From: Escherichia phage EC6
Sequence record: JX560968
DNA: 64,000 nt
Reading direction: 5' to 3' (one strand)
Part shown: positions 5,046-59,061 of the stretch, one piece after another
Numbering within the stretch: the stretch's first letter is position 1
Layout: each line of letters begins with the position of its first letter
Notes under the pieces: model-generated
Databases searched by the model: none
Told to the model about the DNA's origin: nothing
Seen by the model: only the letters and a program-made list of their open reading frames with translations
Position numbers and translations under genes: made by a program

Positions 5046-5384
5046 TCTTTCACCACATATCTTCTCAAGAAACTAAAAAGGGAACTACCTCTCGATAGCT
5101 CCCATCATAGTTAATGTTGTATATTCGGTCAAGAGTATTTTTTAGGCAGTAATGCACTGCGCTTGTTGCTCTCTTCACTCAATAGTGCGATAAACTCATC
5201 ACCTTTCCCTTTCCACGGGCTGAATGTAGGGATGTGCTCCCTGATAGCATCAATCACTGTTTTCAGGGCGTTGTTCTTTAACCACCAATCAGACACTGCC
5301 GAAGCTACAATGTAGTAAGCACCGTCATCTGTGAAGATTGGCTCAGAGATACATGGTGAAATCATAGTGGTAATGATAGAACCA

Positions 5385-5711
5385 TTATTCATGTAGTATG
5401 TTCTTTTTTTCAACCTTATCAAGAAGCTTATGAAGGTCTGCAAAGAGACTTACCACCTCTTTATGGTCAATATCTTTTTCAAGATTTGCCCTGTATTTCA
5501 ATAGTGCAGCATCAACCTCTTTATCATTGAATTTGAAGTATTGGACTTCTTCATTCACACATACACTGATATTGTTGGTGTTTATCGTCAATTTGCACAG
5601 TTTGACTGGAGAATTGATGTTGGTCTGAAAAAGTGCTACACAGCCTTCTACATTCCCGAAATGTTTGACTAATGTAACTTCTGGTTGGATATGTTCATGC
5701 TCTTCTGACAT
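5385..5711 (-). CDS. hypothetical protein (108 aa)
   Basis: ORF in minus block; the overlapping ORF 5129-5443 may be a separate short gene with an internal start. Confidence 0.45.
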   Translation of the reverse strand: MSEEHEHIQPEVTLVKHFGNVEGCVALFQTNINSPVKLCKLTINTNNISVCVNEEVQYFKFNDKEVDAALLKYRANLEKDIDHKEVVSLFADLHKLLDKVEKKNILHE

Positions 5712-5989
5712 TATAGTTTCCTCATTAAATACTTTTTAAGTTGTGTGTTAGGTTTCTCAAAAACTTCTATAGAAGATATCTTGACAGACTCACCACGCAT
5801 ACCTGTATGTTTAAATATGTAATACTCTAACATCCCTATGTACTTTGCTGGTAAGTCATGTTTGACATAGACTGTTACAGAATCTTCAAATTCAACAACC
5901 TTTGTACCATCCTTGTAGTTAAACTCTCTAGGGTGGTTGTAGTTATCAATGTCATACATTAAAAACGAGTCTTTTCCGTTGCATGTCAA
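5711..5989 (-). CDS. hypothetical protein (92 aa)
   Basis: ORF in minus block. Confidence 0.45.
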   Translation of the reverse strand: MTCNGKDSFLMYDIDNYNHPREFNYKDGTKVVEFEDSVTVYVKHDLPAKYIGMLEYYIFKHTGMRGESVKISSIEVFEKPNTQLKKYLMRKL

Positions 5990-6048
5990 GCTTATTGGTT
6001 AAAGACTCTTTGATGTCTGAGAAGTTTTTGTACACTGTGACATGGAGC

Positions 6049-6342
6049 TTATTCATCGTTAAACTCTCTGACGAAGAAATAGTTGACTTTATTATTACCT
6101 ACCATAAGGTCAAAGCAGGTATTCTCAAAAGGTTTGTTGTAGGCATCGTATGAAGTGTACGTATCAGCTACTTGTTTAGTATTGAGCTTTTTACTTGATG
6201 GGTTTAAGAGGCCACCATACAGTTTCTTGATAGCCTCTTCTACAACAGACCAGATAATTTCGTCAGTAATTTCTTCGTACAGGTCAAGTTCACGCTCTAG
6301 TGAGAAGTCACAAATAGGGAAGATAACCTGTACTTTGCTCAT
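6049..6342 (-). CDS. hypothetical protein (97 aa)
   Basis: ORF in minus block. Confidence 0.45.
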   Translation of the reverse strand: MSKVQVIFPICDFSLERELDLYEEITDEIIWSVVEEAIKKLYGGLLNPSSKKLNTKQVADTYTSYDAYNKPFENTCFDLMVGNNKVNYFFVREFNDE

Positions 6343-15916: not shown

Positions 15917-15995
15917 GCTCCATTACTCCAATTGGCAGAGAGGCCAGACTTAAAATCTGTGTTATGTATCGGTTCGAATCCGATATGGAGTACCA
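15917..15995 (+). tRNA. tRNA with anticodon TAA (Leu-type anticodon) on a class-I-length scaffold
   Basis: Acceptor GCTCCAT/ATGGAGT, anticodon loop CTTAAAA, 6-nt variable loop, perfect T-arm ATCGG-TTCGAAT-CCGAT, CCA encoded. Confidence 0.45.
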
Positions 15996-16000
15996 AATTT

Positions 16001-16076
16001 AGCGGTATAGCATAACTGGCAATGCAGCAGTCTCTGAAGCTGTCTTATTAAGGTTCAAATCCTTATGCCGCTGCCA
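16001..16076 (+). tRNA. tRNA-Gln (anticodon CTG)
   Basis: Acceptor AGCGGTA/TGCCGCT, D-stem GCAT/ATGC, anticodon loop CTCTGAA, T-arm TAAGG-TTCAAAT-CCTTA, CCA encoded. Confidence 0.55.
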
Positions 16077-16107
16077 CTTCTAAGGATTCTTACGAGAGTC
16101 CTTAAAT

Positions 16108-16183
16108 GTGGCCTTATCATAAATGGTAATGACCCATGCTGTGAACATGGTCTATACGGGTTCAAATCCCGTAGGTCACCCCA
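16108..16183 (+). tRNA. tRNA-His (anticodon GTG)
   Basis: Acceptor GTGGCCT/AGGTCAC, anticodon stem CCATG/CATGG with loop CTGTGAA, T-arm ACGGG-TTCAAAT-CCCGT, CCA encoded. Confidence 0.6.
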
Positions 16184-16188
16184 ATTTA

Positions 16189-16265
16189 TAGTCCAAGTAG
16201 CTTATATGGTTAAAGCGCGTGTCTGAAAAACATGAGAAGAGGGTTCAAATCCCACTGGACTACCA
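16189..16265 (+). tRNA. tRNA-Phe (anticodon GAA); ends approximate
   Basis: D-stem GCTT/AAGC, anticodon stem CGTGT/ACATG with loop CTGAAAA, T-loop TTCAAAT; the acceptor register is ambiguous by 1-2 nt. Confidence 0.5.
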
Positions 16266-16281
16266 ATTTCAAAGGTGCTTA

Positions 16282-17016
16282 ATGAAAGAGATGACAGAAC
16301 AAGGTAAGGAGATTTTTAATCTCTTAAAAACTGGTAAAGGGTTTTCTAACCCCCTTATTACTGGTGCAGCAGTTCTCGGTGGAACCGTAGCTGCCTCTAC
16401 ATCACTTGTAAGCTCTATTAGCTCTGTATCAGACCCTACAGTAAAGGATAAGCTTGTTGCTGCTGGACTTACAACAGTTCTGCTTAACAGCTTTACCACG
16501 AGTCTGACAAGCACTACATCAACTACCAAAACACTGACAGATTACGGTCAAAAGTCCATTGATGAGTTTTCATCACGTATGCAGGTAGCAAAAGGTTATT
16601 CTAATGTTATGGGTGCAGCAGGTGAACAAGTTGGCTGTACACCGTTTAGTGGTATTATGGGTGTTGCTACAGAATATGGTCAAAAAGCTATTGACACAAT
16701 TAACAGTGCACTAGACGGTGTTAATGATGTATTAAGTGACTTACAAGACGCTATTGACAAAGGTCTTGATACTATTTCTGATTTAGCTAACCAAGCTGTT
16801 AGTAAGATTAATGAAGGTATCTCGAAGATTACAGCTTATGCAGATGAAGTTGTGCAGATGATTGAAGAAGAAGCTGCCCTTATTGCAGAGTACCTTAAAA
16901 CGAATATCAATGGGTTCTTAGCAGGTATCTTACCAGACTGGTTTGATGATGCTTGTAAAACTGGTGTAATTGACACTATTGCAACACCAGAAATGAAGAG
17001 CGCATTACAGAAATAA
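16282..17016 (+). CDS. hypothetical protein (244 aa)
   Basis: ORF in the tRNA cluster; the ATG at 16282 with an AAAGG RBS is preferred over the upstream in-frame start, which overlaps tRNA-Phe. Ser/Thr-rich N-terminal region. Confidence 0.45.
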   Translation: MKEMTEQGKEIFNLLKTGKGFSNPLITGAAVLGGTVAASTSLVSSISSVSDPTVKDKLVAAGLTTVLLNSFTTSLTSTTSTTKTLTDYGQKSIDEFSSRMQVAKGYSNVMGAAGEQVGCTPFSGIMGVATEYGQKAIDTINSALDGVNDVLSDLQDAIDKGLDTISDLANQAVSKINEGISKITAYADEVVQMIEEEAALIAEYLKTNINGFLAGILPDWFDDACKTGVIDTIATPEMKSALQK

Positions 17017-17037
17017 TGGAAGATTAACCCTAAAAGG

Positions 17038-17130
17038 TAAGGGAGCAGTTTGCTAAACTGCCAGTAGCTGAGAAATCGGTGTACCAGTTCAAGTCTGGTA
17101 TCTTCCTCCAATTTGAATCCGTGACAGAAA
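17038..17130 (+). tRNA. tRNA-Ser (anticodon GCT), long variable arm
   Basis: Perfect acceptor GGAAGAT/ATCTTCC, 3-bp D-stem CCC/GGG, anticodon stem GCAGT/ACTGC with loop TTGCTAA, ~21-nt variable arm, T-arm ACCAG-TTCAAGT-CTGGT, CCA encoded. Confidence 0.65.
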
Positions 17131-17134
17131 TGGC

Positions 17135-17210
17135 TATGTACCTGTCTGCAAAACAGGTTTATAAGGGTTCGAGTCCCTTCGGATTCTCCAAGTTATTTTA
17201 CTCTCTCTCA
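17135..17210 (+). tRNA. tRNA-Cys (anticodon GCA)
   Basis: Acceptor GAATCCG/CGGATTC, anticodon stem CCTGT/ACAGG with loop CTGCAAA, T-arm AAGGG-TTCGAGT-CCCTT, CCA encoded. Confidence 0.6.
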
Positions 17211-17634: not shown

Positions 17635-19235
17635 ATGGACTTAAATGCTGTTAAGCAGAAGCGAGTGGAAGATGTTAGGAAAGTCCTAGCTGGAGAGTTG
17701 GGGCTTTCTGATGAAGTAAAAGAAATTATCAAATCATTCGGTAAAGACCCCTCTAAATTCCTTCCAACTCAAATTCTGACTTTATTAAGATACACCCCAG
17801 ACCAAGTTAGACTTATCTTCAAATTGATGACTGATAAGAACTATGTAGCCCCTCAGCCGGGTTCTCAAGAGGTCTTTTTAAATACTAATGCTGACTTGGT
17901 TCTCTATGGTGGTGCTGCGGGTGCTGGTAAGACTGCTGCATTGTTGATGGACTCTTTAAGATTTATTGAAGACCCTAACTATAATGCTGTGTATTTCCGT
18001 CGAAACACAACACAGTTACAAGGTGGTTTATGGCCTGCTGCAAAGAAACTATTTGGTAAGTTTGGTGGGGTTCCTCACGAGCAGAAGATGACTATCACAT
18101 TCCCTTCTGGGGCAACTATCAAGTTTACCTACCTAGAACTTGAAAAGCACGCTGAAGGTCATCAGGGTATTGAATACTCAGCTATTTACTTTGACGAAGG
18201 TACTCACTTCTCTGCTTCACAGATTTCATACCTACAGACTCGTCTGCGTTCTGGGGCTGAAGGTGACTCATACATGAAGATTTCCATGAACCCAGACAGA
18301 GACCACTTTATTTACGATTGGGTAGAACCATTCTTAGATGAAGAAGGTTACCCAGACCCTGAAAAGTGTGGTCGTATTCGTTGGTATGTAATGAATGATG
18401 GTGTTATGGTTTCTGATTGGGAGAGAGACAAGATTCTTGAAATGTTTCCTCTTGAGATTCCTCAAACATATACATTCATCTCTGGTACGATTGATGATAA
18501 CCCAATCCTTGACTTCTTGGAACCTAAATATCGTGGTAAGTTGGAAAACAACACCCCTGTAAACGTTGCAAGACTTCGTTTCGGTAACTGGAAGGCTCGT
18601 GCAGAAGGTTCAAACTATTGGCAAAGACAATGGTGTGAGATTGTTGATTCACTCCCAGAAGATGTGTTTGATGTCAGAGCATGGGACTTAGCAGCAACTT
18701 TACCATCTGAAATTAACCCTAACCCAGACTGGACAGCGGGTGTTAAGATGGGTAAATCTAAAAAGACGGTTGCTATTATATCATTGATGTAGTAAGATTT
18801 AGAGATAGACCCTCTGGAGTTGAAACACAAATTAATTTGACTGCTGAAAGTGACGGTAAGCGAACTGGTATTTTTATCCCTCAAGACCCAGGCGCTGCTG
18901 GTAAATCCTATGCAACATCCCTCATCAGGAAACTTGCCGAGAAAGGTTATCGCGCAAGAGCTAAACCAACAAATAAAGATAAAGTTACCCGCTTTGCGGG
19001 ATTTTCTGCTGCTTCTGAAGCTGGACTTGTAAAAGTCTTGAGAGGCAGTTGGAACGAAGCTTACTTTCAAGAACTTGAAGGCTTTTGTGGTGATGGTAAA
19101 ACTAAAGATGACCAAGTGGATGCTACCAGTGATGCTTTCAACAGTCTTAACGAAGTTAAATTATTCAAGCCACCATCAATGGGTGCTCACACAGACTTAG
19201 TGAGAGGAAACCCATATGAGGGGCTTAGACGTTGA
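17635..19235 (+). CDS. terminase large subunit; reading frame interrupted at A5 run 18760-18764
   Basis: Walker A YGGAAGAGKT in the N-terminal ATPase domain; nuclease-domain motifs (WDLA..DWTAG, then YYIIDVVRFR and DDQVDA) continue in the -1 frame from ~18762 to 19235; the ATG at 17635 has a GGAGG RBS. Confidence 0.7.
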
Positions 19236-19251: not shown

Positions 19252-20717
19252 ATGGCAGAAATTACAGAAACACAAGAAAGCTTACCACCATTTAGAATGG
19301 GTGAAGTAGGTTCTTTGGGTCTGAAGGTTAAGAATGGTAGAATCTATGAAGAACCTCGTCAGGCACTAAGGTTCCCTGAAAGTATTAAAACTTTCCAATT
19401 AATGATGCGTGACCCTGCTGTAGCAGCATCTGTAAATATTATTAAGATGTTTGTTAGAAAAGTCAACTGGAGATTCGTACCTCCAAAGGGAAAAGAGCAA
19501 GACCCTAAAATGCTTGAAAGAGCAGACTTCTTTAATTCTTTAATGGATGACATGGAGCATGATTGGGCAGATTTTATTAACTCTGTAATGTCATTCTGCA
19601 CTTATGGGTTCTGTGTTAACGAAAAGGTTTATAAGAAACGTCAGGGTAAAAAGGAAAGTACCAGTCAAAATTTGATGATGGTCTAATTGGGTGGGCTAAA
19701 TTACCAATCAGAAACCAATCGACACTTGATAAGTGGTATTTTGACGAAGACTTTAGAAAAGTTACTGGTGTTAGGCAGAATCTGAGAAATGTTTCACATA
19801 TTGCTGGAGCAATTAATCTTGGAGAAAGACCACTAACAAGAAAACTCCCACGAGCTAAATTCATGTTGTTTAAGTATGATGACGAATATGGAAACCCAGA
19901 AGGTCGTTCACCATTACTTAATGCCTATGTACCGTGGAAGTATAAAGTACAGATTGAAGAGTATGAAGCTGTTGGTGTTTCAAGAGACTTGGTAGGTATG
20001 CCAAAGATTGGTTTACCACCAGATTATCTGGATGAAAATGCAGAACCTGAAAAGAAAGCTTTCGTACAATACTGCAAAACTGTTGTTAATGATATGATTG
20101 CAAATGACAGAGCAGGTTTAATCTGGCCTAGATATATCGACCCAGATACTAAAGAGGATATTTTCGAGTTCTCATTAGTCTCTAGACAGGGTGCTAAAGC
20201 ATACGACACAGGTTCTATTATTGACAGATATTCCAAGCAGATTATGATGGCATTTATGTCAGATGTTCTTGCTATGGGTCAGTCAAAATATGGTTCATTC
20301 TCTCTTGCAGATTCTAAGACAAGCTTACTAGCAATGTCAGTAGATATTCTGCTGAAGCAAATTAAGAACGTAATTAACCGTGATTTAGTTGCACAGACTT
20401 ATGCTCTTAATATGTGGGACGATGAAGAACATGTACAAATCACATATGATGATATCGAAACTCCAGACCTTGAAGCAATTGGTTCTTATATTCAGAAAAC
20501 TGTTGCAGTAGGTGCTTTGGAAGTTGACAAAGAGCTATCTAACAAGCTTAGAGAGCATATTGGTCTTCCTCCTGCTGATGAGTCTCAGCCAGTATCTGAA
20601 AAGCTTTCTCCAAACAGTCAAAGCCGTTCAGGAGATGGTTATAAGACCGCTGGAGAAGGTACTGCAAAGACACCTTCAGCAAAAGACCCAAGCACAGCAA
20701 ATAAGGCAAATAAATAA
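19252..20717 (+). CDS. portal protein; reading frame interrupted at A5 run 19648-19652
   Basis: Position directly after terminase; the N-terminal 135 codons (frame 1) and the C-terminal ~355 codons (frame 0) are separated only by a -1 shift at GGTAAAAAGG; the combined ~490 aa is typical of portals. Confidence 0.55.
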
Positions 20718-21560: not shown

Positions 21561-22907
21561 ATGAGTTCGAATATCTTCAGACTTGCTGATAGATTGTTCA
21601 ACCAACCTTTACTAGCCACTGAATCATTAGCTCACTCAGCAGCAACCTATGTGAATAACAGATTGCTGGGTGATGTCCAAGCAGCAGTAAACTTTGATAA
21701 ACCCAAAGGTGAAGCAAGAAGTCTTTAAAAAGTAAAAGATGACATTGCTATTATTCCTATTATGGGTGGTTTAACTCATCGTATGACATTCATTGATGCA
21801 ATGTGTACAGGTGGTTTAAGCTCTTATGAAGGTTTACGCAGAGGCTTTGACGAAGCTTTAGCAGATGAGTCAATTAAGACTATTGTTCTGCATATTGATT
21901 CTGGTGGTGGTGAAGCTTCAGGTTGCTTTGAATTAGCACGTCACATTATGGCTTCAAGAGGCCAAAAGAAAATTATCGCTTATGTAGATGAGTTCGCTTG
22001 TTCCGCTGCATATGCTCTTGCATCTTCTGCTGAAGAAATTATTGCATCACCAGATGCAGATGTTGGTTCTATTGGTGTAATTATGGTTCATCAGGAATTA
22101 ACTAAGGCATTTGAAAAGAATGGCGTAACAATTAACGTCATCAAAGCTGGTGAGTTTAAAGGTATGGGTTCACCATTCCAAGCACTTTCAGAAGAAAGCA
22201 AAGAAAGACTTCAAAAGAGAATTAATGATACCTACGCAACCTTCACAGGTTTTGTAGCTGAATCTCGTAATCTCTCTGAAGAAGCTGTAAAGAATACTGA
22301 GGCGAATGTTTATTCTGCTCAGGAAGCTCTTGAACTTGGTTTAATTAACTCAATCATGTCTCAAGATGATTTCTTAAATTACTTACAAGGTTCTGAAGAG
22401 GCTCCTGTAAGTTTAAACGTTAACAATTCAGGTGAAGAAATGACTGAACAAGAAAAGCAAGAACTAGAAGCTTTGCGTCTTCAGGTTGCTCAAATGAAAG
22501 CTAAAGAACAGGAAGCTGCTTTGTCAGATTTGACTAATAAGATTTCTGCTTCTGCTGAAGCTTTTGGATTTGATGCAAAAGAAGCTGCAACGACTATTTT
22601 AGGTGCTGGTCTTGATAACCCTCTGAGTGTTCTGTTTATGAATGCTATGGAAGGTGCTAACCAGAAACTTAATGAAACTATCGCATCCCATGCTTCTGCA
22701 ATGGAAGAAAAAGAATCAGAAATTACCAAGCTGAAAGAAACTGCTGGTGCTGTTCTTGAACATTCCAATGCTATGGAAGAAGTGGGTAATGACGGCGAAG
22801 CTGATTTGGTTGAAGAAGAAAAAGAACCAGCTAAGAATGCTTCCGAAGACACCGCTGAACAACGCAAACTGGCTCTCCAGAACGCTCTAAAATCTCTTAT
22901 CAAATAA
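21561..22907 (+). CDS. prohead protease (S49 / lambda gpC-like) with C-terminal scaffold-like region; in-frame TAA at 21726-21728
   Basis: N-terminal FNQPLLATESLA resembles lambda C FNEPLMLEPAYA; the S49-like core (IVLHIDSGGGEASG...) follows; the conserved ARS-x-KV...IAIIP block spans the in-frame TAA; C-terminal E/K/A-rich helical tail. Confidence 0.6.
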
Positions 22908-41161: not shown

Positions 41162-41190
41162 GGCTCCTTTTTACGGGAGCCTTTTTGTTT
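41162..41190 (+). terminator. rho-independent terminator at convergent junction
   Basis: Hairpin GGCTCC-tttttac-GGGAGCC followed by a T-run, between the plus-strand late block and the minus-strand block. Confidence 0.55.
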
Positions 41191-47674: not shown

Positions 47675-48231
47675 TTAGTGTACTTCAAGCCAGCTTTTAC
47701 CAACCTTACCAGTACCTGTAACAAGCGTTTCTTTCTTAAGACCTAAGTTTTTAGAAGCTTGCCCATAATACCAGTCAGTAACTGCTTTCACTTCTGCCGT
47801 CATACTTTCTGGACATTCCCAACTCGTCTCGTCGTGATAGGAGCACAATAAACGAGCACCTATAGCTGGTTTGCGACCGTTCAACTTCATCAAACCTTCG
47901 TCAATCATACGACGGCAAGCAAGGTTAATTGCTTCATTCTGAACCTGCGCCTCACTACCCATTAGGGTATAGTTTAATAGTTTATGCGGTGATTTACACC
48001 ATAACCACGCCCCAGCGACCTGAATGTACCCACCCTTAGCGATTGCAGCACTCTTGCCGAAAACCTCTTCTAATGCCTTCTTAGTGGCCTTAAAATCGGC
48101 TTCTAAGTTATCAAGTAGTTTCTTAATCTTTGGTAGACGCATATAGTAGGTCTGCTTAGTTAATGCACCTTCCTCTGTAGAAGCTGCCTTAATGGTCTTG
48201 GCAAACTTCTCATCACCTGCACCGAACAATA
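47675..48231 (-). CDS. DNA polymerase (family A), 3-prime exon / C-terminal part
   Basis: Begins LFGAGDEKFAK, the second half of Pol A motif B (compare T7 YGFLYGAGDEK), and contains motif C LLCSYHDE; no independent ATG (the frame enters via TTG). Confidence 0.65.
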
Positions 48232-49036
48232 CATCTGGTCAATACACTCGCAAGGTGTACCAGTTCTCTTATGAACTTCTCCGCATTTCTACGGAGTGTC
48301 GGACTATATCACGCAGTAGTAATACTACCGTTGCACTTGGGAATGGTCATTAGCTTACCACCCTACTCTACTCAGTTCATACATTAAGTATGCTTTTCGA
48401 TAGTCTCTGAACGTTTCTCTGTTAGGAACTCTAAAATACTATTATTTACTAAGGTATGCAATTGCTCTCTTCATGTTCTCTATACTATCTGAGAACAGCC
48501 CAAGACCTCTGTTACAGTTGTGACACAGCATACCTCTTACCTGTCCTGTTTTGTGGTCATGGTCAACAACCAGCTTGGCTTTATGTCTTGAACCATCCAT
48601 GATAAAACCTTCACCACCGCAGATTTGACACTTGTGACCACACTTACTTAGTAACTCTTCGACCTCTTCTCTTTCTAAGCCGTAAGTCCTTAAGTAATAG
48701 TTCTTTACCCTTCCCTTTTCTCCACAAGCAGAACTGCAATACGTCTGTCTTGCTGTTCTAGGTGTAAACTGGTTATTGCAGCTTGGACATATTTTCTCTA
48801 TGACACGACTTGCTGCTCTTCTGTCTACTTCAAGAACGCAGTTTCTACAACGTTTTTGATTGTACTGATATGGCTTAAACTCTTCGCCACATCTGGAACA
48901 AACTCTTTCTTTATAACCTGCCATTGTCTCTCTCCCATTTCTACTATAGGAGTCCTAACAGAGACTTCGCTGCTGATTACCATATCTTTACAGACTTAGG
49001 CTTCCAGCAATTCACAACGTTTTACATGCGCCACTG
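48232..49036 (-). mobile_element. intervening sequence in DNA polymerase gene (group I intron-like) carrying an endonuclease ORF; boundaries approximate
   Basis: Splits Pol A motif B between RKKAKNGIYA and LFGAGDEK; an in-frame stop follows 17 codons into the insert; contains a free-standing Endo VII/HNH ORF; the proposed junction obeys the exon-U / intron-terminal-G rule. Confidence 0.5.
48442..48924 (-). CDS. HNH-superfamily endonuclease (Endonuclease VII-like), intron-encoded homing endonuclease candidate
   Basis: Signature VVDHDHKTGQVRGMLCHNCNRGLG plus two N-terminal Cys4 zinc-ribbon-like motifs; lies wholly inside the polymerase insertion on the same strand. Confidence 0.65.
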   Translation of the reverse strand: MAGYKERVCSRCGEEFKPYQYNQKRCRNCVLEVDRRAASRVIEKICPSCNNQFTPRTARQTYCSSACGEKGRVKNYYLRTYGLEREEVEELLSKCGHKCQICGGEGFIMDGSRHKAKLVVDHDHKTGQVRGMLCHNCNRGLGLFSDSIENMKRAIAYLSK

Positions 49037-51179
49037 ACGCATAGATACCATTCTTAGCCTTCTTACGGCCTTTAGTTATCTCGTGAAGAAGTTCTTCATC
49101 CTGAGTTTCTCTACAACGAATAATGTCATCCTCTTTGTTCAATGCAAAGTAGATGCTGTTAAGCGTATGTGCATCAGTACCTGTATACACCTCATATAAG
49201 TCATTATCCATATCGTAACGACAATACTTGTCAGTCTCTGGATTGAGGTACTTGTCAAGATGTTTGCAGTAGTACCGTCCATCATCCTGTTTAGTGAACT
49301 CGACAAACTCTTTACCTTCAGTTACTGCTTTAGTGAACTCTTTATCACCCATAAAGTTACACAGTAAAACAAGCTGTGCAGAGTTCTGGTCAACTGAAAC
49401 GATGTTAGTCCCTTCCTCACAAATCCACACCTCCCTCATAGGTGCTCCATAGACAGCAGCACCAGATGGTACGTTTACAATACCATACTGCGTCATACGT
49501 CCAGTTGAAGTACCAAACACCATTGCACCAGCACTAAGGCGACCATCTGGACGAATCTGGTTCAACCAACCTTTTTCATCATCCTTTGAGTTCTCAATAG
49601 TTCTGCGTCGGTGCATCAAAGTATAGTACTTAGCAATCTTCTGTCCAAGTTCACCTTCAATCGTATCATAAGATGATTCAGTAAGTTTTGGTGAAGTACG
49701 GATTAAGCAAGGCTCAAGCAAATCTGTGTACTTCTTCACAGACCAGTTATGCTCAATGTACTGTACACCTTCATGTTCAACATAACTCAAACCACACCGC
49801 TCAACCATTTCCTGCCACTTAGGATGCTTTGTAATCATCTTTTTATTGTCTTTGAAACGACAAACTTTGACAGGGTGACCATCTGAGTCTTTCTTGTAGT
49901 TCCAGTCATCTGGAATCCAACCAACTGATTTCAAGTAGTCTTTAACAACTGCTACCTGAGTCATACGAGAAACTTCAAACTCAATTGGTGTATATGGTGC
50001 ATCAATCAAACCTGTGTAGCGACTTGACTCAAGTTCAAAGTGGTTAACAACGTGGCTGTTATAGTACTTCACAGTTTTGACTGTTTTTACTGGCTTCCAG
50101 TCTTTGCATTTCTTACCAATCTTTGCATTCAACTCATTGCAAATTGCACGAGCATCCTTCATTGCTACAAAGCCTTCCTTGTACTCTTCACCAGTTACAG
50201 AGTTGGTTGGTGTATAGCAATTTCTCTTTTCAATGTTAAAAATCTTTGTAGTTGGCTTACCAAATGGCTTGATTTCGTATGTCTGCATCTCACCGTTACG
50301 TACCTGCTGACGATACTTTGTCTTAGGATACTTGGTAATCCTCTTCAGTCCATCTGCATGACCAAATGTTTCAACATACTCATTCCAAGCTTTTGCAAAC
50401 TCTTCTCCAGTGACTTTACCTTTGGTCTTAATAGTTGGAGGAAGATGTGGTTCAACCTCTGAAGCAAGCTCATTAGTCAACTTGTCAAGTTCCTTTACAT
50501 GGAACTCCATAAGCTCTTTATCAGCTTTCCAACCATTGATAGCTTGTTGACTCATCCAGAAAGATGTTTCTTTAGCTCGCATGTAAGTTTCATAAGTGTC
50601 TATACCACACTTCTTAAGCTTGAGATACTCGTTATCAAGTGCCCGTTTAGTTTTGGCGTTAATACGGATATCTTCTACAACACGAGTGAAGATTTCTGCA
50701 TTCCACACACCCCAATGTTCAATCTCTGGTTTACGAACACCAACACGAGCACCCCATGCAGCCAAACCATGAGCACCTTTATAACCCTTTGGAGTTGGTC
50801 TATCCATCCACTGAACACGAGACTGGATAAGAGAATCCTGAAAGAAATTACTCCACGGTTTACACTTTGGATTATCAAAGTTCCATAAATCAGGTGCAAT
50901 GTGATTGAAAACCCACCAGTCATAACCGAGACCGTTGTGGATGCAAAGACGTTTTGCCTTTAACGCAAACTCAATACCTTCACGTAAGCCACCCTTGATG
51001 TACTTGGTATACTTGTGACCGAGGATAGGCTCATCTGTAAAGACCCATACAGGTGGCTCTTCATCATCAGATTTATAGTCTGCGAAAGCCATTACGTGCA
51101 CTTTAGTGAACTCAAGGAGTAAACCATCAGTTTCTGTATCACCAACTAAATGTAAGTTTTTAAAATCTACGTTTTCCAT
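49037..51179 (-). CDS. DNA polymerase (family A), 5-prime exon with 3-prime-5-prime exonuclease domain
   Basis: Exo I motif VGDTETDG; palm motif A-like SVDQNSAQL; ends in the first half of motif B (GRKKAKNGIY); the internal ATG at 51179 has a GAGGGAG RBS and is preferred over the annotated 51209 start. Confidence 0.7.
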
Positions 51180-51236
51180 TTTTACTCCCTCTAAAATCAT
51201 TAACCTCATACATTACTGCAAAAAATTATAAAAAGC

Positions 51237-51436: not shown

Positions 51437-51859
51437 ATGCAGAAAATGTTTGCTCACCCAGACATAGCTGACTTTGTTAGAGCTTTGCAGAAGTTGGAAG
51501 AACTTGACATTGCTGCTCAACGGGAATATGCTCACCATCACAGGAGAATGGTTGATATACAACATGAAATAGAGTTGTCTGAAAACTATGAAGATGACTT
51601 AAAATGCTCTGTATTTGAGCATATGAAAGATGTTGCTACAGCGAGACGCAAAGCTAAAGACACAGTTGCTTTACTAGATTCTCTTAAAAAGAGGTTGCAA
51701 AGTGGTACAGACCTGTGTAATCTAGCGTCACTGATTAACGATGTTGAAACTTCTTGGGATAGGCACTATTATCCACGTTCTGAAAAGACACTTGACTTTT
51801 CTTCATCCGAAAACTTAAAATGTTCTAGAAAGAAACTTAACCAACTGAGAGAGAAATAA
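51437..51859 (+). CDS. hypothetical protein (140 aa)
   Basis: First plus-strand ORF after the divergent region. Confidence 0.45.
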   Translation: MQKMFAHPDIADFVRALQKLEELDIAAQREYAHHHRRMVDIQHEIELSENYEDDLKCSVFEHMKDVATARRKAKDTVALLDSLKKRLQSGTDLCNLASLINDVETSWDRHYYPRSEKTLDFSSSENLKCSRKKLNQLREK

Positions 51860-51860
51860 T

Positions 51861-52124
51861 ATGAATATCGATGTAGAAAAGATGCTTGAAGAGAAAGGTG
51901 TTGATGAAGCATTCTTAATCAATGCCGTAGAAAGCATGGCTATGATTCTTCGTGGTAATAACTACACAGAACAGTTTATGCCTGCAAGCTATAACTTGCC
52001 TGAAGACAAGTCTGATAACGGTGCTTTTGCAGAACAGGTTAATATGATGTTGACAGACACTACACTTGCTCTGGCATCTATTGCGGTTGGTGTTGATGCA
52101 CTTGCTGAGTTCAGTTTTTTATGA
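51861..52124 (+). CDS. hypothetical protein (87 aa)
   Basis: ORF; may continue into the next ORF across the T6 run at 52115-52120. Confidence 0.4.
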   Translation: MNIDVEKMLEEKGVDEAFLINAVESMAMILRGNNYTEQFMPASYNLPEDKSDNGAFAEQVNMMLTDTTLALASIAVGVDALAEFSFL

Positions 52125-52671
52125 AATGCAAAAGAATGACTATATCAGGATGTCAGACGAAGATAAGGAACTGTTGCTGACTAAGGACACTGATTTCATT
52201 ATTGATACACTTATCTCATCAACAAGTGCTGTTATGGCTGTTCTTGAGAAGCGTATGGAAGAGAAACTTTCACGATATGAAAAACTTGATTGGGGCGTAG
52301 AAGAATTAAACCCACGAATCAAAGAGATTATCCAGCAAACTAAAGAGTCTTTGGAAGAAGCTGTTGAAAATGACTCTGTAGCTGACATTGAACCACTTCA
52401 GGTGAAAGTTGCACTGATGATTCCAGCTATCTCTACGATGATGAATATCGTTGCACTAATCCAACTGTCACAGATGATGGGTGTGAGTATTGAGTTCATT
52501 GAGGAAATGACTGGTGGCGTTAGTATGCAAGCAATCAATGATGTTTTGGTGAACATTGGTGCTTCAATCATTGAAGAGAAACTACGCATTAACTTCGGTG
52601 ATGATTTTGTGAAGCAAATCTCAGCTATGGCTGAAAAGAGTCTGCTGAGCAACTGCACTAAGTCTTTATAA
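52066..52671 (+). CDS. hypothetical protein (201 aa; start uncertain)
   Basis: Frame overlaps the upstream ORF by ~60 nt; the first in-frame ATG downstream lacks an obvious RBS. Confidence 0.4.
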   Translation: MLWHLLRLVLMHLLSSVFYEMQKNDYIRMSDEDKELLLTKDTDFIIDTLISSTSAVMAVLEKRMEEKLSRYEKLDWGVEELNPRIKEIIQQTKESLEEAVENDSVADIEPLQVKVALMIPAISTMMNIVALIQLSQMMGVSIEFIEEMTGGVSMQAINDVLVNIGASIIEEKLRINFGDDFVKQISAMAEKSLLSNCTKSL

Positions 52672-52681
52672 ATCTTACAAG

Positions 52682-52705
52682 CCTCCTTAGTTGGGGGCTT
52701 TTTAG
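52682..52705 (+). terminator. rho-independent terminator-like hairpin
   Basis: AGCCTCC...GGGGGCT followed by T5. Confidence 0.4.
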
Positions 52706-53675: not shown

Positions 53676-55653
53676 AGGTCGTAAATTGAAAGAGGCTGGT
53701 CAGTTTGTTGGTCATTGCGCATGTCCACGTTGTGGTTCATCAGATGCTGGTTCAATCTACCATCATGACGATGATTCTTATTCAATGACTTGCTTTAGCT
53801 GTAACAAAGGTTTCCCAGAGTGGGATTTTGATAAAGGACAAATCGTGAGCACTTATTCTACTGGTTCAGATAATAAAAACCGTACTTTTCGTGGAATGGA
53901 TTTAGACGATGTAAAAGAAAACCTAGAAGCGATGGACTTGAAAGACAGGAAGATTCCTGCAAAAGTTCTTGAGCGTTTGGGTATTAAGGTTGACATTGAC
54001 AGTGATGGTGAAATTGACGCGCATTTCTACCCAACTTACAAACGCAATGAAGATGGCAAGCTAGAGCATGTTGGCTACCGTGTTCGTCACCGTTACCCAG
54101 AAGACCATCCAAAAGAGCACCTACGAGGTAAGTTAAAAGACTTTTCTGGTGGTGTTGGAGACATTAAAGGTGAACTGGCAATGTTCGGTTCATGGATTGC
54201 TCCAGAAGGTGGTAACCGTCTATTCATCTGGGAAGGTGAGATGGAATGTGCGACAGCAATCTATATGACTTCTCTTGCGATTAAGGACAAATCTCGTCGT
54301 AAGAATTACTGTCATGTATCTGTTCCGTCAGGTGCAAACATCAAGTCTATCAAAGATAACTATCAGTACATCACATCATTTGATGAAATTTACTTGTGCT
54401 TTGATAACGATGAAGCAGGTGCTAAAGCTACCAAAGAGGCTGCTGGTATCTTACCTATTGAGAAAGTTCGTTTATTCCAGTATCCAGAGGGTGTAAAAGA
54501 CCTTAACGAATGGTGGACAAAGTTCTATAAAGAGAAAGACACAGTTCTGGAAGGATTTAAGCAGCGTATCTACAACGCACCTCGTTATTGCCCTGCTGGT
54601 ATCAAGAACTTTGCAGATGGTTTTGAGGCAATGAAGAACCGTGGTCAGATTCCATTGATTCCTTTCCCAGAATCTTTCGGGGATTTGAACAGACTGACTT
54701 ATGGTGGTTACGGTTTAGGCGAGATTACGACTATCGCAGCACCATCTTCAGTAGGTAAGTCAGCTTACACTCGTGAGATGATTTATTCAGCTTGGAAAGA
54801 AACTGATTATAATATCGGTGTAATTCCTGTAGAAGATACCTATGAAGAGTTGATGGAGATGCTCTGTGCAATCCACCTAAGCAAGCAGATTTCTGAGATT
54901 CCTTATGACGAACGTGATTGGGATGAATTGAAGGAAGCACACGCAGAGCTATCTAAAGGTCGTCGTATCCATATCGTTGACCATCAAGGGGCAATTGACC
55001 AAGATAACCTGCTGGAGTTTGTTGACTATCTTGTTAATAGCTTAGACTGTAAGATTATTATTCTTGACCCTATTACGTTGGCTCTGTCACGTTCTGATAC
55101 GGATGAAGAGGAAGTTTTGTCTGAGCTATTGCGTCGTTGCAAACGCTACCAGTATGCGCAGGTAAACGTATGTCACGTTCGTAAGAGTGCAGGTGGTCAG
55201 AAAGCCAACTCTGAAGGTGGAGATATCTCTGAAGAGGATATTAAGGGTTCTGGTGCATACTTCCAGATTTCTATGAACAACATTCTGTTAATGCGTAACA
55301 AGGTTGACCCAGACCCTGTTAAGAAAAACTTGACAAAAATCAAGTTAACTAAGTGTCGTCGTCATGGTAAGTCAACAGGTATTGCTGGCCATACTTGGTA
55401 CAATCCAGATACAGGACGTCTCATCAAAGCTTCTGGATGTGGTGTTGACATTGATGGTGCAGCAGAAAATATTCGGCAACAGTTTGGTATTGGTGAAGCT
55501 GAAGACCATTACGATGACTCTTTACCTCATTATGAGGATGAAGTGTTTGACCGTGAGACTGGTGAAGTCTATACTGAAGAACAGCGTCAAAGCTCAACGA
55601 TTCCACCTGTATTAATTGAGGATGCAGATGACTGCCCGTTTGAAACTGAGTGA
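53668..55653 (+). CDS. bifunctional DNA primase / DnaB-like helicase (T7 gp4-like)
   Basis: N-terminal zinc-binding motif CxxC...CxxC (GHCACPRCGS...CFSC), central TOPRIM-like region, helicase Walker A APSSVGKSAY and downstream helicase motifs. Confidence 0.75.
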   Translation: MSKGRKLKEAGQFVGHCACPRCGSSDAGSIYHHDDDSYSMTCFSCNKGFPEWDFDKGQIVSTYSTGSDNKNRTFRGMDLDDVKENLEAMDLKDRKIPAKVLERLGIKVDIDSDGEIDAHFYPTYKRNEDGKLEHVGYRVRHRYPEDHPKEHLRGKLKDFSGGVGDIKGELAMFGSWIAPEGGNRLFIWEGEMECATAIYMTSLAIKDKSRRKNYCHVSVPSGANIKSIKDNYQYITSFDEIYLCFDNDEAGAKATKEAAGILPIEKVRLFQYPEGVKDLNEWWTKFYKEKDTVLEGFKQRIYNAPRYCPAGIKNFADGFEAMKNRGQIPLIPFPESFGDLNRLTYGGYGLGEITTIAAPSSVGKSAYTREMIYSAWKETDYNIGVIPVEDTYEELMEMLCAIHLSKQISEIPYDERDWDELKEAHAELSKGRRIHIVDHQGAIDQDNLLEFVDYLVNSLDCKIIILDPITLALSRSDTDEEEVLSELLRRCKRYQYAQVNVCHVRKSAGGQKANSEGGDISEEDIKGSGAYFQISMNNILLMRNKVDPDPVKKNLTKIKLTKCRRHGKSTGIAGHTWYNPDTGRLIKASGCGVDIDGAAENIRQQFGIGEAEDHYDDSLPHYEDEVFDRETGEVYTEEQRQSSTIPPVLIEDADDCPFETE

Positions 55654-55722
55654 TAGTTATAAAAGAGAGGGGTTCATACCCTTCTTTGAAGAAAAAGTTT
55701 AAATGAATTTCAGGAAGAGTGT

Positions 55723-55751
55723 TTGACAAAGGTTGATAGGTTCTATAGAAT
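55723..55751 (+). promoter_or_regulatory. sigma70-like promoter (TTGACA-N17-TAGAAT)
   Basis: Consensus -35 with 17-nt spacer to TAGAAT. Confidence 0.5.
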
Positions 55752-55904
55752 GCTCTACATGAAATGTGATGGAGGCGTTGAGGTAGAAGAAAAGTTCCAT
55801 CACAGTATAATAACAGTCACTATTACTATACCTCGACATAATATTGGTTGGCTGTTTATAATTAAAGAAAATGTGTTTGAATATCAAGTATATCGGAGAA
55901 TATC

Positions 55905-57003: not shown

Positions 57004-57030
57004 AGCCCTGTACTTAGTATGGGGCTTTTT
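57004..57030 (+). terminator. rho-independent terminator
   Basis: Hairpin AGCCC...GGGGCT followed by T5. Confidence 0.5.
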
Positions 57031-57046
57031 CATATGGAGAGTCACA

Positions 57047-58094
57047 ATGGAGAAGTACACATTAAAAAAACCTTCCCGATTCAGTTACACATGTTTTTAT
57101 CGACTCTGACAGTATTGCCTATAAAGGGGCTTGTGTAGTTGAGAAAGCAAAATATAAATACGTCAATAAACTCACAGCAGAAGAGTCTGAACCATTTGAT
57201 AATGCAAAAGATGCTGCAAGATGGTTAGCAGACCAGAGAATCCTTGTGGAAGAGCTTGGCCTAGCATTTGATGAAGATGAATGGGAAAGACAGACTTGGA
57301 AAGAAGCTAAGAGTGAAAAAGAAGCTATCATGGCTACTCAACAGGTGCTTCAGGAATGGCTTAAGGTTGTTGGTAAAGAAAGAACTTGGGTAGGTTATTT
57401 AACAGAGAAAGGTGTGCATAAACATAAAGACATTAAAGGTCTTGAGCACCAATATCAAGGTAACCGCAAAGATGCTGTCACACCAACACACTTAGTTGCT
57501 TGTCGTGAATATCTTCTGTCAAGACCAGAGTTCAAACTAATTCTTGATGGATTTGAAGCTGACTCTATCGTGATTGCTAAAGCTGAAAAGATGGGTAAAA
57601 AGGCTGCCTTAATGAGTATTGATAAAGACCTTCGACAAGCTGAAGGTACTTACTGTATTGATATGACTTATGAAAAGTCGCCTTTGATTTTCATTGCTGA
57701 TAACAACGTTGGTGAAATTTGGGATTGTCCAATAAAATCGACACCAAAAGCTAAGAAGACAGTTGGGGTAGGTTTTAAATTTCTTTGCTATCAAGCCGTG
57801 GCTGGTGATAATGCGGATAATTATTTCGGTTTAAAGGGTGTTGGTAAGGTTACTATAATGAAAGCCCTTGAAGGTAAAACCACTTACAAAGAGTGTCTTG
57901 ATGCAATTTATGAGCTTTATGCTAAGAAAGAGTCATACACTTATGTCTCGTGGGATGGTCAAACAATTACCAGAACACCTTTAGAGTTAATGCAGCAACA
58001 CTTTTTCTTAGCTTATCAGGAAAGAAACAAGAAAGATGATTTCACTTTTGATAAGTATGGGTGGACACCAAATGTTAACTCAACAAACTCTTAA
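57047..58094 (+). CDS. flap endonuclease / 5-prime-3-prime exonuclease (RNase H-like); reading frame interrupted at A7 run 57064-57070
   Basis: ATG at 57047 (MEKYTLKK) then a +1 frame change into HVFIDSDSIAYKGA (compare T4 RNase H ICLIDFSQIAL) and the later helix-hairpin-helix motif AGDNADNYFGLKGVGKVT. Confidence 0.6.
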
Positions 58095-58563
58095 AGAATA
58101 CCTACACTATGACCCCGAAACAGGGGTCTTTACTTGGATTAAGAAGTCTGCTAAGCACACAAAAATTGGTTCTGTTGCAGGTACAAACTTAAAAGGTTAC
58201 ATCCGAATTTACTTGTTTGGTAAAGGGTACTATGCGCATTCATTAGCTGTCCTATATATGGATGGTTATCTTCCTGAGTGTGTTGACCACAAGAACCATG
58301 TAACTCTAGACAATCGTTGGTTAAATCTGAGGGCATGTACACTATCAGAGAACCAATGCAATAGGTTGCTTAACAAAAACAATAAATCCGGTGTCAAAGG
58401 TGTGTACTACAACAAGAGGTATGGTAAGTGGTCTACACAGATAACTTTTCAGAAGAGAGTTTACTTCTTCGGCAACTATGACACGATTGAGGAAGCAGCA
58501 GAAGTTGTGAATAGAGAACGTCAACGTTTACACAAAGAGTTTGCTAATAAAGGTGATGAATGA
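58072..58563 (+). CDS. HNH homing endonuclease with AP2 DNA-binding domain
   Basis: HNH_3-type motif GYIRIY...HSLAVLYMDGYLPECVDHKNHVTLDNRWLNL and AP2-like GVKGVYYNKRYGKWSTQITFQKRVYFFGNYDTIEEA. Confidence 0.6.
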   Translation: MLTQQTLKEYLHYDPETGVFTWIKKSAKHTKIGSVAGTNLKGYIRIYLFGKGYYAHSLAVLYMDGYLPECVDHKNHVTLDNRWLNLRACTLSENQCNRLLNKNNKSGVKGVYYNKRYGKWSTQITFQKRVYFFGNYDTIEEAAEVVNRERQRLHKEFANKGDE

Positions 58564-59061
58564 GAAAAATTAAAGGTTTTGGTAATTGCCCTGAGTATGG
58601 ACATTGGATTTCACTTTGTGGGGAAATTGACCCAGCAAAGCATTTTGGTTTTGTCTACCTAGTGTACTGCAAAAAGACTGGGCAGTACTATTTGGGTAAG
58701 AAACAGTTTAACAGTGTGACCAAAAGAAAAGTTGCTGGGAAGACTCGGAAGAAGGTAGTCACTAAGGAGAGTGATTGGATGACTTATGAGACTTCTTCTG
58801 AGTATATTAAAAAACGATATTGAGAGCTTTGGAAAAGAATTTTTTGACTTTTACATTATTCAAACCTACTACACAAAAGGTGGCCTAGTCTATGGTGAAG
58901 CAAACCTTCAACATAAATTCGATGTAATGACAAAAAGGATTGACTCTAAGCTCAGACTCTTCTACAATGCCAACATTGCAGCAATTAAGTTTATCACTAA
59001 AGAAACTTATGAAGATGCTGAAAAAAGAATCCATAAGGTAATGAAAGCAAATTGTGCTTGA
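58560..59061 (+). CDS. GIY-YIG endonuclease-like gene, frame broken at A6 run 58809-58814 (possible pseudogene)
   Basis: GIY-YIG-like GFVYLVYCKKTGQYYLGKK at the N-terminus; the downstream frame (+1) carries the rest of the domain. Confidence 0.4.

What the first reader, a model, noticed from the sequence alone, without database searches (positions are those of the whole stretch)
19640..19660. Portal gene broken at the same TAAAAAG context
The portal N-terminal 135 codons end 12 codons after GGTAAAAAGG; the remaining ~355 codons are open in the -1 frame starting exactly at that A5 run (19648-19652). Same geometry as the terminase (upstream frame reads AAA-AAG, downstream frame is -1, TAA in the -1 frame overlaps the run).
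Basis: seen in the sequence. Interest (0 to 1): 0.5.

Follow-up and report, generated by a model that had tools for sequence, protein, structure and literature searches.

The report
Portal split by homopolymer sequencing error
The phage's portal gene looks broken only because the deposited sequence (Escherichia phage EC6, sequenced partly with 454) almost certainly lacks one A in a run of six; it is an ordinary record error, not a programmed frameshift.

Summary
The portal gene is read as a 144-codon ORF (19252-19686), and the other 355 codons are open in the -1 frame from 19650, just after GGT-AAA-AAG. The terminase is broken with the same geometry at 18759-18765.

The recoding reading does not hold. 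The window is Escherichia phage EC6 (JX560968), a Felixounavirus sequenced with 454 plus Illumina and merged by hand. Nearly all relatives carry A6 at this site and a single 488-codon portal ORF: 237 of 238 GenBank records and 15 of 15 IMG/VR contigs. Adding one A gives a portal that differs from phage SeKF_63 at 1 of 488 residues. The same repair gives a terminase that differs at 1 of 533.

Against three relatives, the window has 11 unique gene-breaking lesions in 10 genes, all at or next to A/T runs of 4-7. Five need a -1 shift, five need a +1 shift, and one is an in-frame TAA in the prohead protease. Runs of 6 or more differ in length at 12 of 39 sites in the window, against 0-2 of 44-52 among relatives.

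There is no canonical slippery heptamer and no stable downstream structure, and the few other A5 carriers are not each other's closest relatives. Verdict: homopolymer undercall in the record. Interest is low.

The parts
19252..19686 (+). Portal gene, N-terminal part as it reads in the record (144 codons plus TAA). This is exactly AFU62361.1 of Escherichia phage EC6.
19648..19652 (+). A5 run inside GGTAAAAAGG. It is A6 in 237 of 238 GenBank felixounavirus records and in 15 of 15 IMG/VR contigs. This is the inferred missing base.
19650..20717 (+). Remainder of the portal gene in the -1 frame (355 codons plus TAA). The annotated piece from ATG 19863 is exactly AFU62362.1 of phage EC6.
17635..18792 (+). 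Large terminase, N-terminal part as it reads in the record (385 codons plus stop).
18760..18764 (+). A5 run inside TCTAAAAAGAC of the terminase. Relatives have A6. Same geometry as the portal site.
18762..19235 (+). Remainder of the terminase in the -1 frame. The break lies inside the Terminase_6C nuclease domain.
21726..21728 (+). In-frame TAA in the prohead protease gene (21561-22907). The window has CTTTAAAAAG where all relatives have CTTTTAAAAG (TTA Leu). No GenBank phage record shares this change.
9932..9936 (+). A5 against A6 in a 123-codon gene that starts at 9902 (TTT AAA AAG GCC). This is a third gene with the same geometry (0 frame AAA-AAG, rest in the -1 frame, TAA in the -1 frame).
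55692..55696 (+). A5 against A6 (GAAGAAAAAGTT) in a small + strand gene. The run sits in a different codon phase (GAA AAA GTT), and the rest of the gene is in the -1 frame.
5404..5410 (-). T7 (A7 on the coding strand) against A6 in relatives. It breaks a 193-codon gene and would need a +1 shift.
5961..5966 (-). An extra base next to a 5-base run (TTAAAAACGAG against TTAAAAAGAG). It breaks a 114-codon gene.
52114..52120 (+). An extra G in front of a T6 run breaks the gene annotated 'minor tail protein' in relatives. A second lesion near its 3' end, at 52634-52637, is A4 against A5.
57064..57072 (+). TTAAAAAAACCTT against TTAACAAAACTT in relatives. It shifts the exonuclease gene out of frame at codon 8.
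58809..58815 (+). An extra C after an A6 run (AAAAAACGAT against AAAAAAGAT). It breaks a 165-codon gene and would need a +1 shift.

Best explanation
The break is an error in the deposited sequence. A run of six A's in the real phage genome was recorded as five. The real phage most likely has GGT AAA AAA GGA AAG TAC and one uninterrupted 488-codon portal gene that is translated normally. The same undercall happened in the terminase (TCT AAA AAA GAC). The record is Escherichia phage EC6 (JX560968), assembled from 454 and Illumina data with hand-merged contigs. By established knowledge, 454 pyrosequencing miscounts homopolymers, and more often as runs get longer. Shown here: the missing base relative to all close relatives, the near-identical repaired proteins, the excess of homopolymer lesions across this record, and the sequencing platform. 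Inferred: that the virus itself carries A6.
For: (1) Relatives. The portal region matches 238 GenBank phage records, and the records span 1467 bases against the window's 1466. The only single-base indels against SeKF_63 in 9.4 kb are A5 against A6 in the terminase and in the portal. A 41-base probe that can seed a match only if the A5 is present hits 1 of about 238 records. IMG/VR holds 0 contigs with A5 and 15 with A6. GTDB genomes hold 0, and the JGI metagenomes give only 2 unrelated chance matches.
(2) Repair. Adding one A gives a 488-residue portal with 1 difference from SeKF_63 and a 533-residue terminase with 1 difference. Portal_Mu and Terminase_6C both span the breaks.
(3) Whole record. 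There are 11 gene-breaking lesions in 10 genes where three relatives agree against the window, and all lie at or beside A/T runs of 4-7. Runs of 6 or more differ in length at 12 of 39 sites for the window against SP22, but at 0-2 of 44-52 sites among relatives of similar divergence. About 30% of 6-base runs are affected, against about 3% of 5-base runs.
(4) Mixed directions. Five lesions need a -1 shift, five need a +1 shift, and one needs readthrough of TAA. No suppressor tRNA is among the 25 tRNA genes.
(5) Source. The two portal ORF products are exactly AFU62361.1 and AFU62362.1 of phage EC6. That genome was made with 454 plus Illumina and manual contig merging, and the phage forms lytic plaques (PMC3569278), so its terminase, portal and protease must work.
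(6) Other A5 carriers. MET-P1-301 has 10 further homopolymer deletions in 9.4 kb. GE_vB_B3 is an UNVERIFIED record with 47 gap positions in 8 kb.
(7) Homopolymer indels that split phage genes are a documented assembly artefact (PMC10438801).
Against: No reads were available, so the error is inferred and not seen. Illumina data were also used for EC6 and should have corrected such errors, although the paper describes manual merging and not systematic polishing. An independent Logan assembly (run ERR975226, 97.6% identical to the window over 6.9 kb) carries the same portal A5. Its terminase and protease are intact, and it has only one other unique A6-to-A5 difference in 13.9 kb. That recurrence at one site is not fully explained, and the platform of that run is unknown. 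Three of the -1 lesions share the codon phase AAA-AAG, which has a chance of about 1 in 9.
Confidence: 0.93

Rival explanations
1. Genuine programmed -1 ribosomal frameshifting. The phage really has A5, and tRNA-Lys slips from AAG back onto AAA (the A_AAG tetranucleotide within U_AAA_AAG), producing full-length portal and terminase plus short N-terminal products.
For: A_AAG is a shift-prone sequence for E. coli tRNA-Lys (own knowledge of dnaX and IS911-type sites, and of tetranucleotide surveys). The same phase and geometry occur in three genes (9932, 18760, 19648). The downstream frame is perfectly conserved. The A5 recurs in an independent assembly.
Against: The heptamer U_AAA_AAG is not canonical, because the P-site tRNA would re-pair with UAA. 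There is no stable downstream structure (z-scores 0.23, -0.55 and 0.29 at the three sites). The only Shine-Dalgarno-like stretch (CAGGGT) abuts the site instead of lying 10-14 bases upstream (spacing rule from own knowledge). The split arrangement is absent from 237 of 238 relatives and from 15 of 15 IMG/VR contigs. A5 carriers are not each other's nearest relatives. This mechanism cannot rescue the +1-type lesions or the TAA in the protease in the same record. Unstimulated A_AAG shifting runs at a few percent, which is a poor fit for two essential genes at once.
Confidence: 0.03
2. Real mutations in the sequenced DNA. The lysate held a large share of defective genomes with A5 alleles that arose by replication slippage and were kept by complementation, and the consensus picked them.
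For: Homopolymers are true hot spots for replication slippage. The same portal run is shortened in an independent assembly.
Against: Ten genes, including the terminase, portal, prohead protease and exonuclease, would all need to be defective in the majority genome of a plaque-forming phage. The lesion spectrum also includes miscalls at run boundaries, such as T4A4 to T3A5 and extra bases beside runs, which are typical of base-calling and not of replication.
Confidence: 0.03
3. Transcriptional slippage. RNA polymerase adds an extra A at the run and restores the frame in part of the mRNAs.
For: The break lies in an A run, and the predicted product would be identical to the relatives' protein.
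Against: Known bacterial cases use runs of about 7-9 or more A/T (own knowledge, for example Thermus dnaX, Shigella mxiE and IS elements). This run has five. The same arguments from relatives and from the +1 lesions apply.
Confidence: 0.01

Closest known systems
Homopolymer indel errors from pyrosequencing or long-read assemblies that split phage genes (for example the DNA polymerase of przondovirus Toyotomi, split into three ORFs; PMC10438801)
   Same: A single-base length error in an A/T run. A conserved gene appears as two adjacent ORFs. Repairing one base restores a protein nearly identical to relatives. Several such lesions occur in one record.
   Different: Nothing material. Here the platform was 454 plus Illumina, not nanopore.
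dnaX / IS911-type programmed -1 frameshifting at A_AAA_AAG in E. coli
   Same: tRNA-Lys on AAG, preceded by A's, with the downstream frame at -1.
   Different: There is no full X_XXY_YYZ heptamer (U_AAA_AAG), no Shine-Dalgarno-like stretch at the stimulatory distance, no stable downstream hairpin, and no conservation of the split arrangement in homologues.
Conserved -1 frameshift in tail assembly chaperone genes (G/GT type) of tailed phages
   Same: A phage structural-module gene pair joined by a -1 shift.
   Different: That frameshift is conserved across relatives and yields two functional products. The portal and terminase split is confined to a few low-quality records and interrupts single domains.

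Membership tests
Programmed -1 ribosomal frameshift site | Slippery heptamer X_XXY_YYZ in the 0 frame | tested here: not met
   The 0 frame reads GGT AAA AAG, so the heptamer is U_AAA_AAG and the P-site re-pairing codon would be UAA. Only the A_AAG tetranucleotide is slippery.
Programmed -1 ribosomal frameshift site | Stimulatory element: a stable downstream hairpin or pseudoknot, and/or a Shine-Dalgarno-like stretch about 10-14 bases upstream | tested here: not met
   The 70 bases downstream fold no better than shuffled sequence: z = 0.23 for the portal, -0.55 for the terminase, 0.29 at 9938 and -1.08 at 55698. The only G-rich stretch, CAGGGT, directly abuts the run.
Programmed -1 ribosomal frameshift site | The two-frame arrangement is conserved among homologous genes | tested here: not met
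   237 of 238 GenBank records and 15 of 15 IMG/VR contigs have A6 and one ORF. A5 carriers are polyphyletic.
Programmed -1 ribosomal frameshift site | Measured frameshift product from A5 DNA | not testable with these tools
   This needs a reporter assay or a virion proteome together with confirmed DNA sequence.
Transcriptional slippage site | A long A or T run (about 7-9 or more) | tested here: not met
   The run is 5 bases long. The length threshold is from own knowledge.
Homopolymer sequencing or assembly error | The lesion lies in a homopolymer, and changing its length by one base restores a full-length conserved ORF | tested here: met
   A5 to A6 gives a 488-residue portal (1 difference from SeKF_63) and a 533-residue terminase (1 difference).
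Homopolymer sequencing or assembly error | The record shows a length-dependent excess of homopolymer discrepancies, including in other conserved genes | tested here: met
   12 of 39 runs of 6 or more differ for the window, against 0-2 of 44-52 among relatives. About 30% of 6-base runs are affected, against about 3% of 5-base runs. There are 11 lesions in 10 genes.
Homopolymer sequencing or assembly error | A sequencing platform prone to homopolymer miscounts | tested here: met
   The window is phage EC6 by exact protein identity. The genome was made with 454 plus Illumina, GS assembler and manual merging (PMC3569278).
Homopolymer sequencing or assembly error | Reads or resequencing show the longer run | not testable with these tools
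   No reads are accessible here.
Portal protein (Pfam Portal_Mu, PHROG 113) | Significant full-length match to the family profile | tested here: met
   PF06074, E = 1.6e-26, residues 47-428. phrog_113, E = 1.8e-114, residues 6-471. Both on the repaired protein.

The most novel reading that the evidence does not exclude
Some felixounaviruses (EC6, the phage in run ERR975226, perhaps MET-P1-301) truly carry A5 in the portal gene, and in some cases also in the terminase. They would make the full-length proteins by low-level tRNA-Lys slippage at A_AAG, which would limit the amounts of packaging proteins.
Probability: 0.03. Interest if true: 0.6.

Novelty: not a real feature. Interest (0 to 1): 0.05.

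Why it matters
It matters only as a data-quality note. The GenBank/RefSeq record of phage EC6 (JX560968 / NC_027369) annotates the portal, terminase and several other genes as fragments. These fragments spread into protein databases as separate 'portal protein' entries of 144 and 284 residues. A scan for recoding signals should filter out breaks that relatives close with a one-base homopolymer change. If the A5 were real, it would be an unusual case of essential packaging genes that depend on frameshifting, but the evidence is strongly against that.

Tried and rejected
1. Motif-specific process at TAAAAAG (a signal, or a context-specific systematic error). Rejected: motif density equals that of relatives, seven TA6G runs are intact in the window, and other contexts are also shortened (GA6G, CT6G, TA6T, CA6T).
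2. Suppressor tRNA for the protease TAA. None is among the 25 tRNAs.
3. Downstream stimulatory RNA structure. None beyond shuffled controls.
4. Inherited trait of a sub-lineage. Rejected, because the nearest relative of each A5 carrier has A6.
5. The search for homologous proteins with the 144-residue fragment returned one hit, an 88-residue fragment encoded on a 109,375-base contig (the length of the GE_vB_B3 record), and was uninformative.
6. Exact look-ups of the 144-residue portal and 385-residue terminase fragments in the contig index found nothing. The look-up of the 284-residue C-terminal ORF found six contigs. Three were split by N-gaps in scaffolds, two were cut by contig ends, and only one (ERR975226) has the A5.
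7. Literature searches for ERR975226 and MET-P1-301 found nothing. A search for Felixounavirus plus frameshift listed six papers (8 held both terms), none whose title or abstract concerns recoding in the portal or terminase.
8. The JGI metagenome scan for the A5 20-mer gave two unrelated chance matches.

Full report
**What is in the sequence**

The window is a Felixounavirus, a Felix O1-like myovirus of E. coli and Salmonella. The portal region matches 238 GenBank phage records, most at 95-99% identity, and the first 50 kb match the best relatives at about 94-95%.

The portal gene starts at ATG 19252. It reads ...CGT CAG GGT AAA AAG GAA AGT ... GTC TAA, with the stop at 19684-19686, giving 144 sense codons. 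In the -1 frame, a TAA at 19647-19649 overlaps the A5 run (19648-19652). That frame then stays open for 355 codons to 20717.

The terminase behaves the same way. ...TCT AAA AAG ACG... stops at 18790-18792, and the -1 frame has TAA at 18759-18761 and is open to 19235.

**What relatives show**

Against Salmonella phage SeKF_63, the only single-base indels in 9.4 kb are these two. Relatives have TCTAAAAAAGAC and GGTAAAAAAGGA, and they have single ORFs annotated as large terminase (533 residues) and portal (488 residues).

I used a 41-base probe centred on the portal A5. It can seed a megablast match only if the A5 is present. It hit one of the roughly 238 records, MET-P1-301. The equivalent terminase probe hit two records, MET-P1-301 and GE_vB_B3.

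Both of those records are visibly error-rich:
- MET-P1-301 has ten further homopolymer deletions in the same 9.4 kb.
- GE_vB_B3 is flagged UNVERIFIED and has 47 gap positions in 8 kb.

Other collections agree:
- IMG/VR holds no contig with either A5 version and 15 with the A6 portal version. All 15, including metagenome-derived ones, have A6, and the terminase and protease sites are intact wherever the fetched stretch covers them.
- GTDB genomes hold none.
- The JGI metagenome scan gave only two unrelated chance matches.

**Repair test**

Inserting one A gives a 488-residue portal with one difference from SeKF_63 (E3D). It also gives a 533-residue terminase with one difference (V146I). Pfam Portal_Mu covers residues 47-428, and Terminase_6C covers 349-504, so each break cuts a single domain. 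Both halves are under full purifying selection, so these are not decaying pseudogenes.

**The rest of the record**

I aligned the window to three complete relatives (VpaE1_ev035, JN01, SP22) and kept only differences where all three agree against the window. I then checked each one in translation. This gave 11 gene-breaking lesions in 10 genes.

| Window position | Lesion | Gene affected | Needed to restore the frame |
|---|---|---|---|
| 5404-5410 | A7 against A6 on the coding strand | 193-codon gene, minus strand | +1 shift |
| 5966 | extra base beside a 5-base run | 114-codon gene, minus strand | +1 shift |
| 9932-9936 | A5 against A6, same geometry as the portal | 123-codon gene | -1 shift |
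| 18760-18764 | A5 against A6 | terminase | -1 shift |
| 19648-19652 | A5 against A6 | portal | -1 shift |
| 21726-21728 | CTTTTAAAAG recorded as CTTTAAAAAG, turning Leu TTA into TAA | prohead protease | stop-codon readthrough |
| 52114 | extra G in front of T6 | gene annotated 'minor tail protein' in relatives | +1 shift |
| 52634-52637 | A4 against A5 | same gene, near its 3' end | -1 shift |
| 55692-55696 | A5 against A6, in another codon phase | small + strand gene | -1 shift |
| 57064-57072 | TTAAAAAAACCTT against TTAACAAAACTT | exonuclease, at codon 8 | +1 shift |
| 58815 | extra C after A6 | 165-codon gene | +1 shift |

Five lesions need a -1 shift, five need a +1 shift, and one needs stop-codon readthrough. 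No single recoding mechanism covers them. None of the 25 tRNAs is a suppressor.

As a control, I compared homopolymer lengths between genomes. Runs of 6 or more differ at 12 of 39 sites for the window against SP22. They differ at only 0-2 of 44-52 sites between relatives of similar divergence. About 30% of 6-base runs are affected, against about 3% of 5-base runs. That length dependence is what a base-counting error produces.

**No motif-specific process**

TAAAAAG is as frequent in relatives as in the window. Seven TA6G runs are intact in the window, and other contexts are also shortened.

**No frameshift signals**

- U_AAA_AAG is not a canonical heptamer.
- The 70 bases downstream of the portal, the terminase and the two other -1 sites fold no better than shuffled sequence (z = 0.23, -0.55, 0.29, -1.08).
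- The only G-rich stretch abuts the run instead of lying at the distance known to stimulate -1 shifting (spacing rule from own knowledge).

**Source of the window**

An exact look-up showed that the two portal ORF products are AFU62361.1 and AFU62362.1 of Escherichia phage EC6 (JX560968 / NC_027369, 86,231 bp). The genome announcement states four relevant points (PMC3569278):
- 454 and Illumina data were assembled separately, with GS assembler and CLC.
- The contigs were merged by manual curation.
- The phage forms lytic plaques.
- The DNA polymerase also appears as two ORFs.

A plaque-forming phage cannot lack its terminase, portal and prohead protease. That 454 pyrosequencing miscounts homopolymers is established knowledge. 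Homopolymer indels that split phage genes are documented (PMC10438801).

**Residual oddity**

A Logan assembly of run ERR975226 carries the same portal A5. It is a different phage, 97.6% identical to the window over 6.9 kb. Its terminase and protease are intact, and it has only one other unique A6-to-A5 difference in 13.9 kb. Its platform is unknown.

A5 carriers are not each other's nearest relatives, since each is closest to an A6 genome. The state therefore arose independently each time. That fits a recurrent calling error, or at most a recurrent slippage mutation, at this particular run. It does not fit an inherited recoding device. This oddity is the only reason I leave about 3% for a real A5 allele decoded by A_AAG slippage.

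**Verdict**

The recoding interpretation is not supported. The best explanation is a one-base homopolymer undercall in the deposited EC6 sequence (confidence 0.93). This is not a real biological feature, and interest is low.

Noticed in passing
window 21561-22907 (stop at 21726-21728): The prohead protease gene (Peptidase_S49 type in relatives) carries an in-frame TAA. It was created by CTTTTAAAAG being recorded as CTTTAAAAAG, a shift of the T/A run boundary. No GenBank phage record shares it. It is probably another base-calling error.
   Followed up: yes
window 47675-51209, minus strand: The family A DNA polymerase is split into a 737-residue part and a 184-residue part. About 770 bases lie between them and carry an Endonuclease_7-domain ORF (48442-48924, E = 6e-20). 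There is also a sub-threshold Rfam group I intron hit at 48896-49009 (22.9 bits against a gathering score of 50). This is probably a genuine homing-endonuclease or intron insertion and not an error, and it would explain the 'two polymerase ORFs' remark in the EC6 paper.
   Followed up: partly
window 9902-10272, 5100-6060 (-), 51830-52700, 55600-55900, 57020-58060, 58560-59060: Seven further genes are broken by eight lesions at or beside A/T runs. All eight are unique to the window against three relatives: at 5410, 5966, 9936, 52114, 52638, 55692, 57071 and 58815.
   Followed up: yes
L025/L031 (Logan ERR975226 contig 3), portal site at L031 9780-9795: An independent felixounavirus assembly has the same portal A5 but an intact terminase and protease. 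The sequencing platform is unknown. The site may be a recurrent error or mutation hot spot.
   Followed up: partly
window 11934-17190: There is a cluster of 25 tRNA genes on the + strand, including two tRNA-Lys (UUU and CUU anticodons). This is typical of Felixounavirus, and none is a suppressor.
   Followed up: yes
window 1154, 11891, 14330, 28212, 41186: Intergenic A6/T6 runs are shortened to 5 relative to VpaE1_ev035 (four of the five against all three relatives; 1154 against VpaE1_ev035 only). Two lie in CT6G stretches between genes, and the one at 41186 looks like a terminator tail. They show the same error profile outside genes.
   Followed up: partly
L002 (PV700625.1 MET-P1-301) and L024 (MG969406.1 GE_vB_B3): Two public felixounavirus records are heavily affected by homopolymer deletions, and many structural genes in MET-P1-301 are annotated as fragments. 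They are unreliable as comparators for indels.
   Followed up: partly
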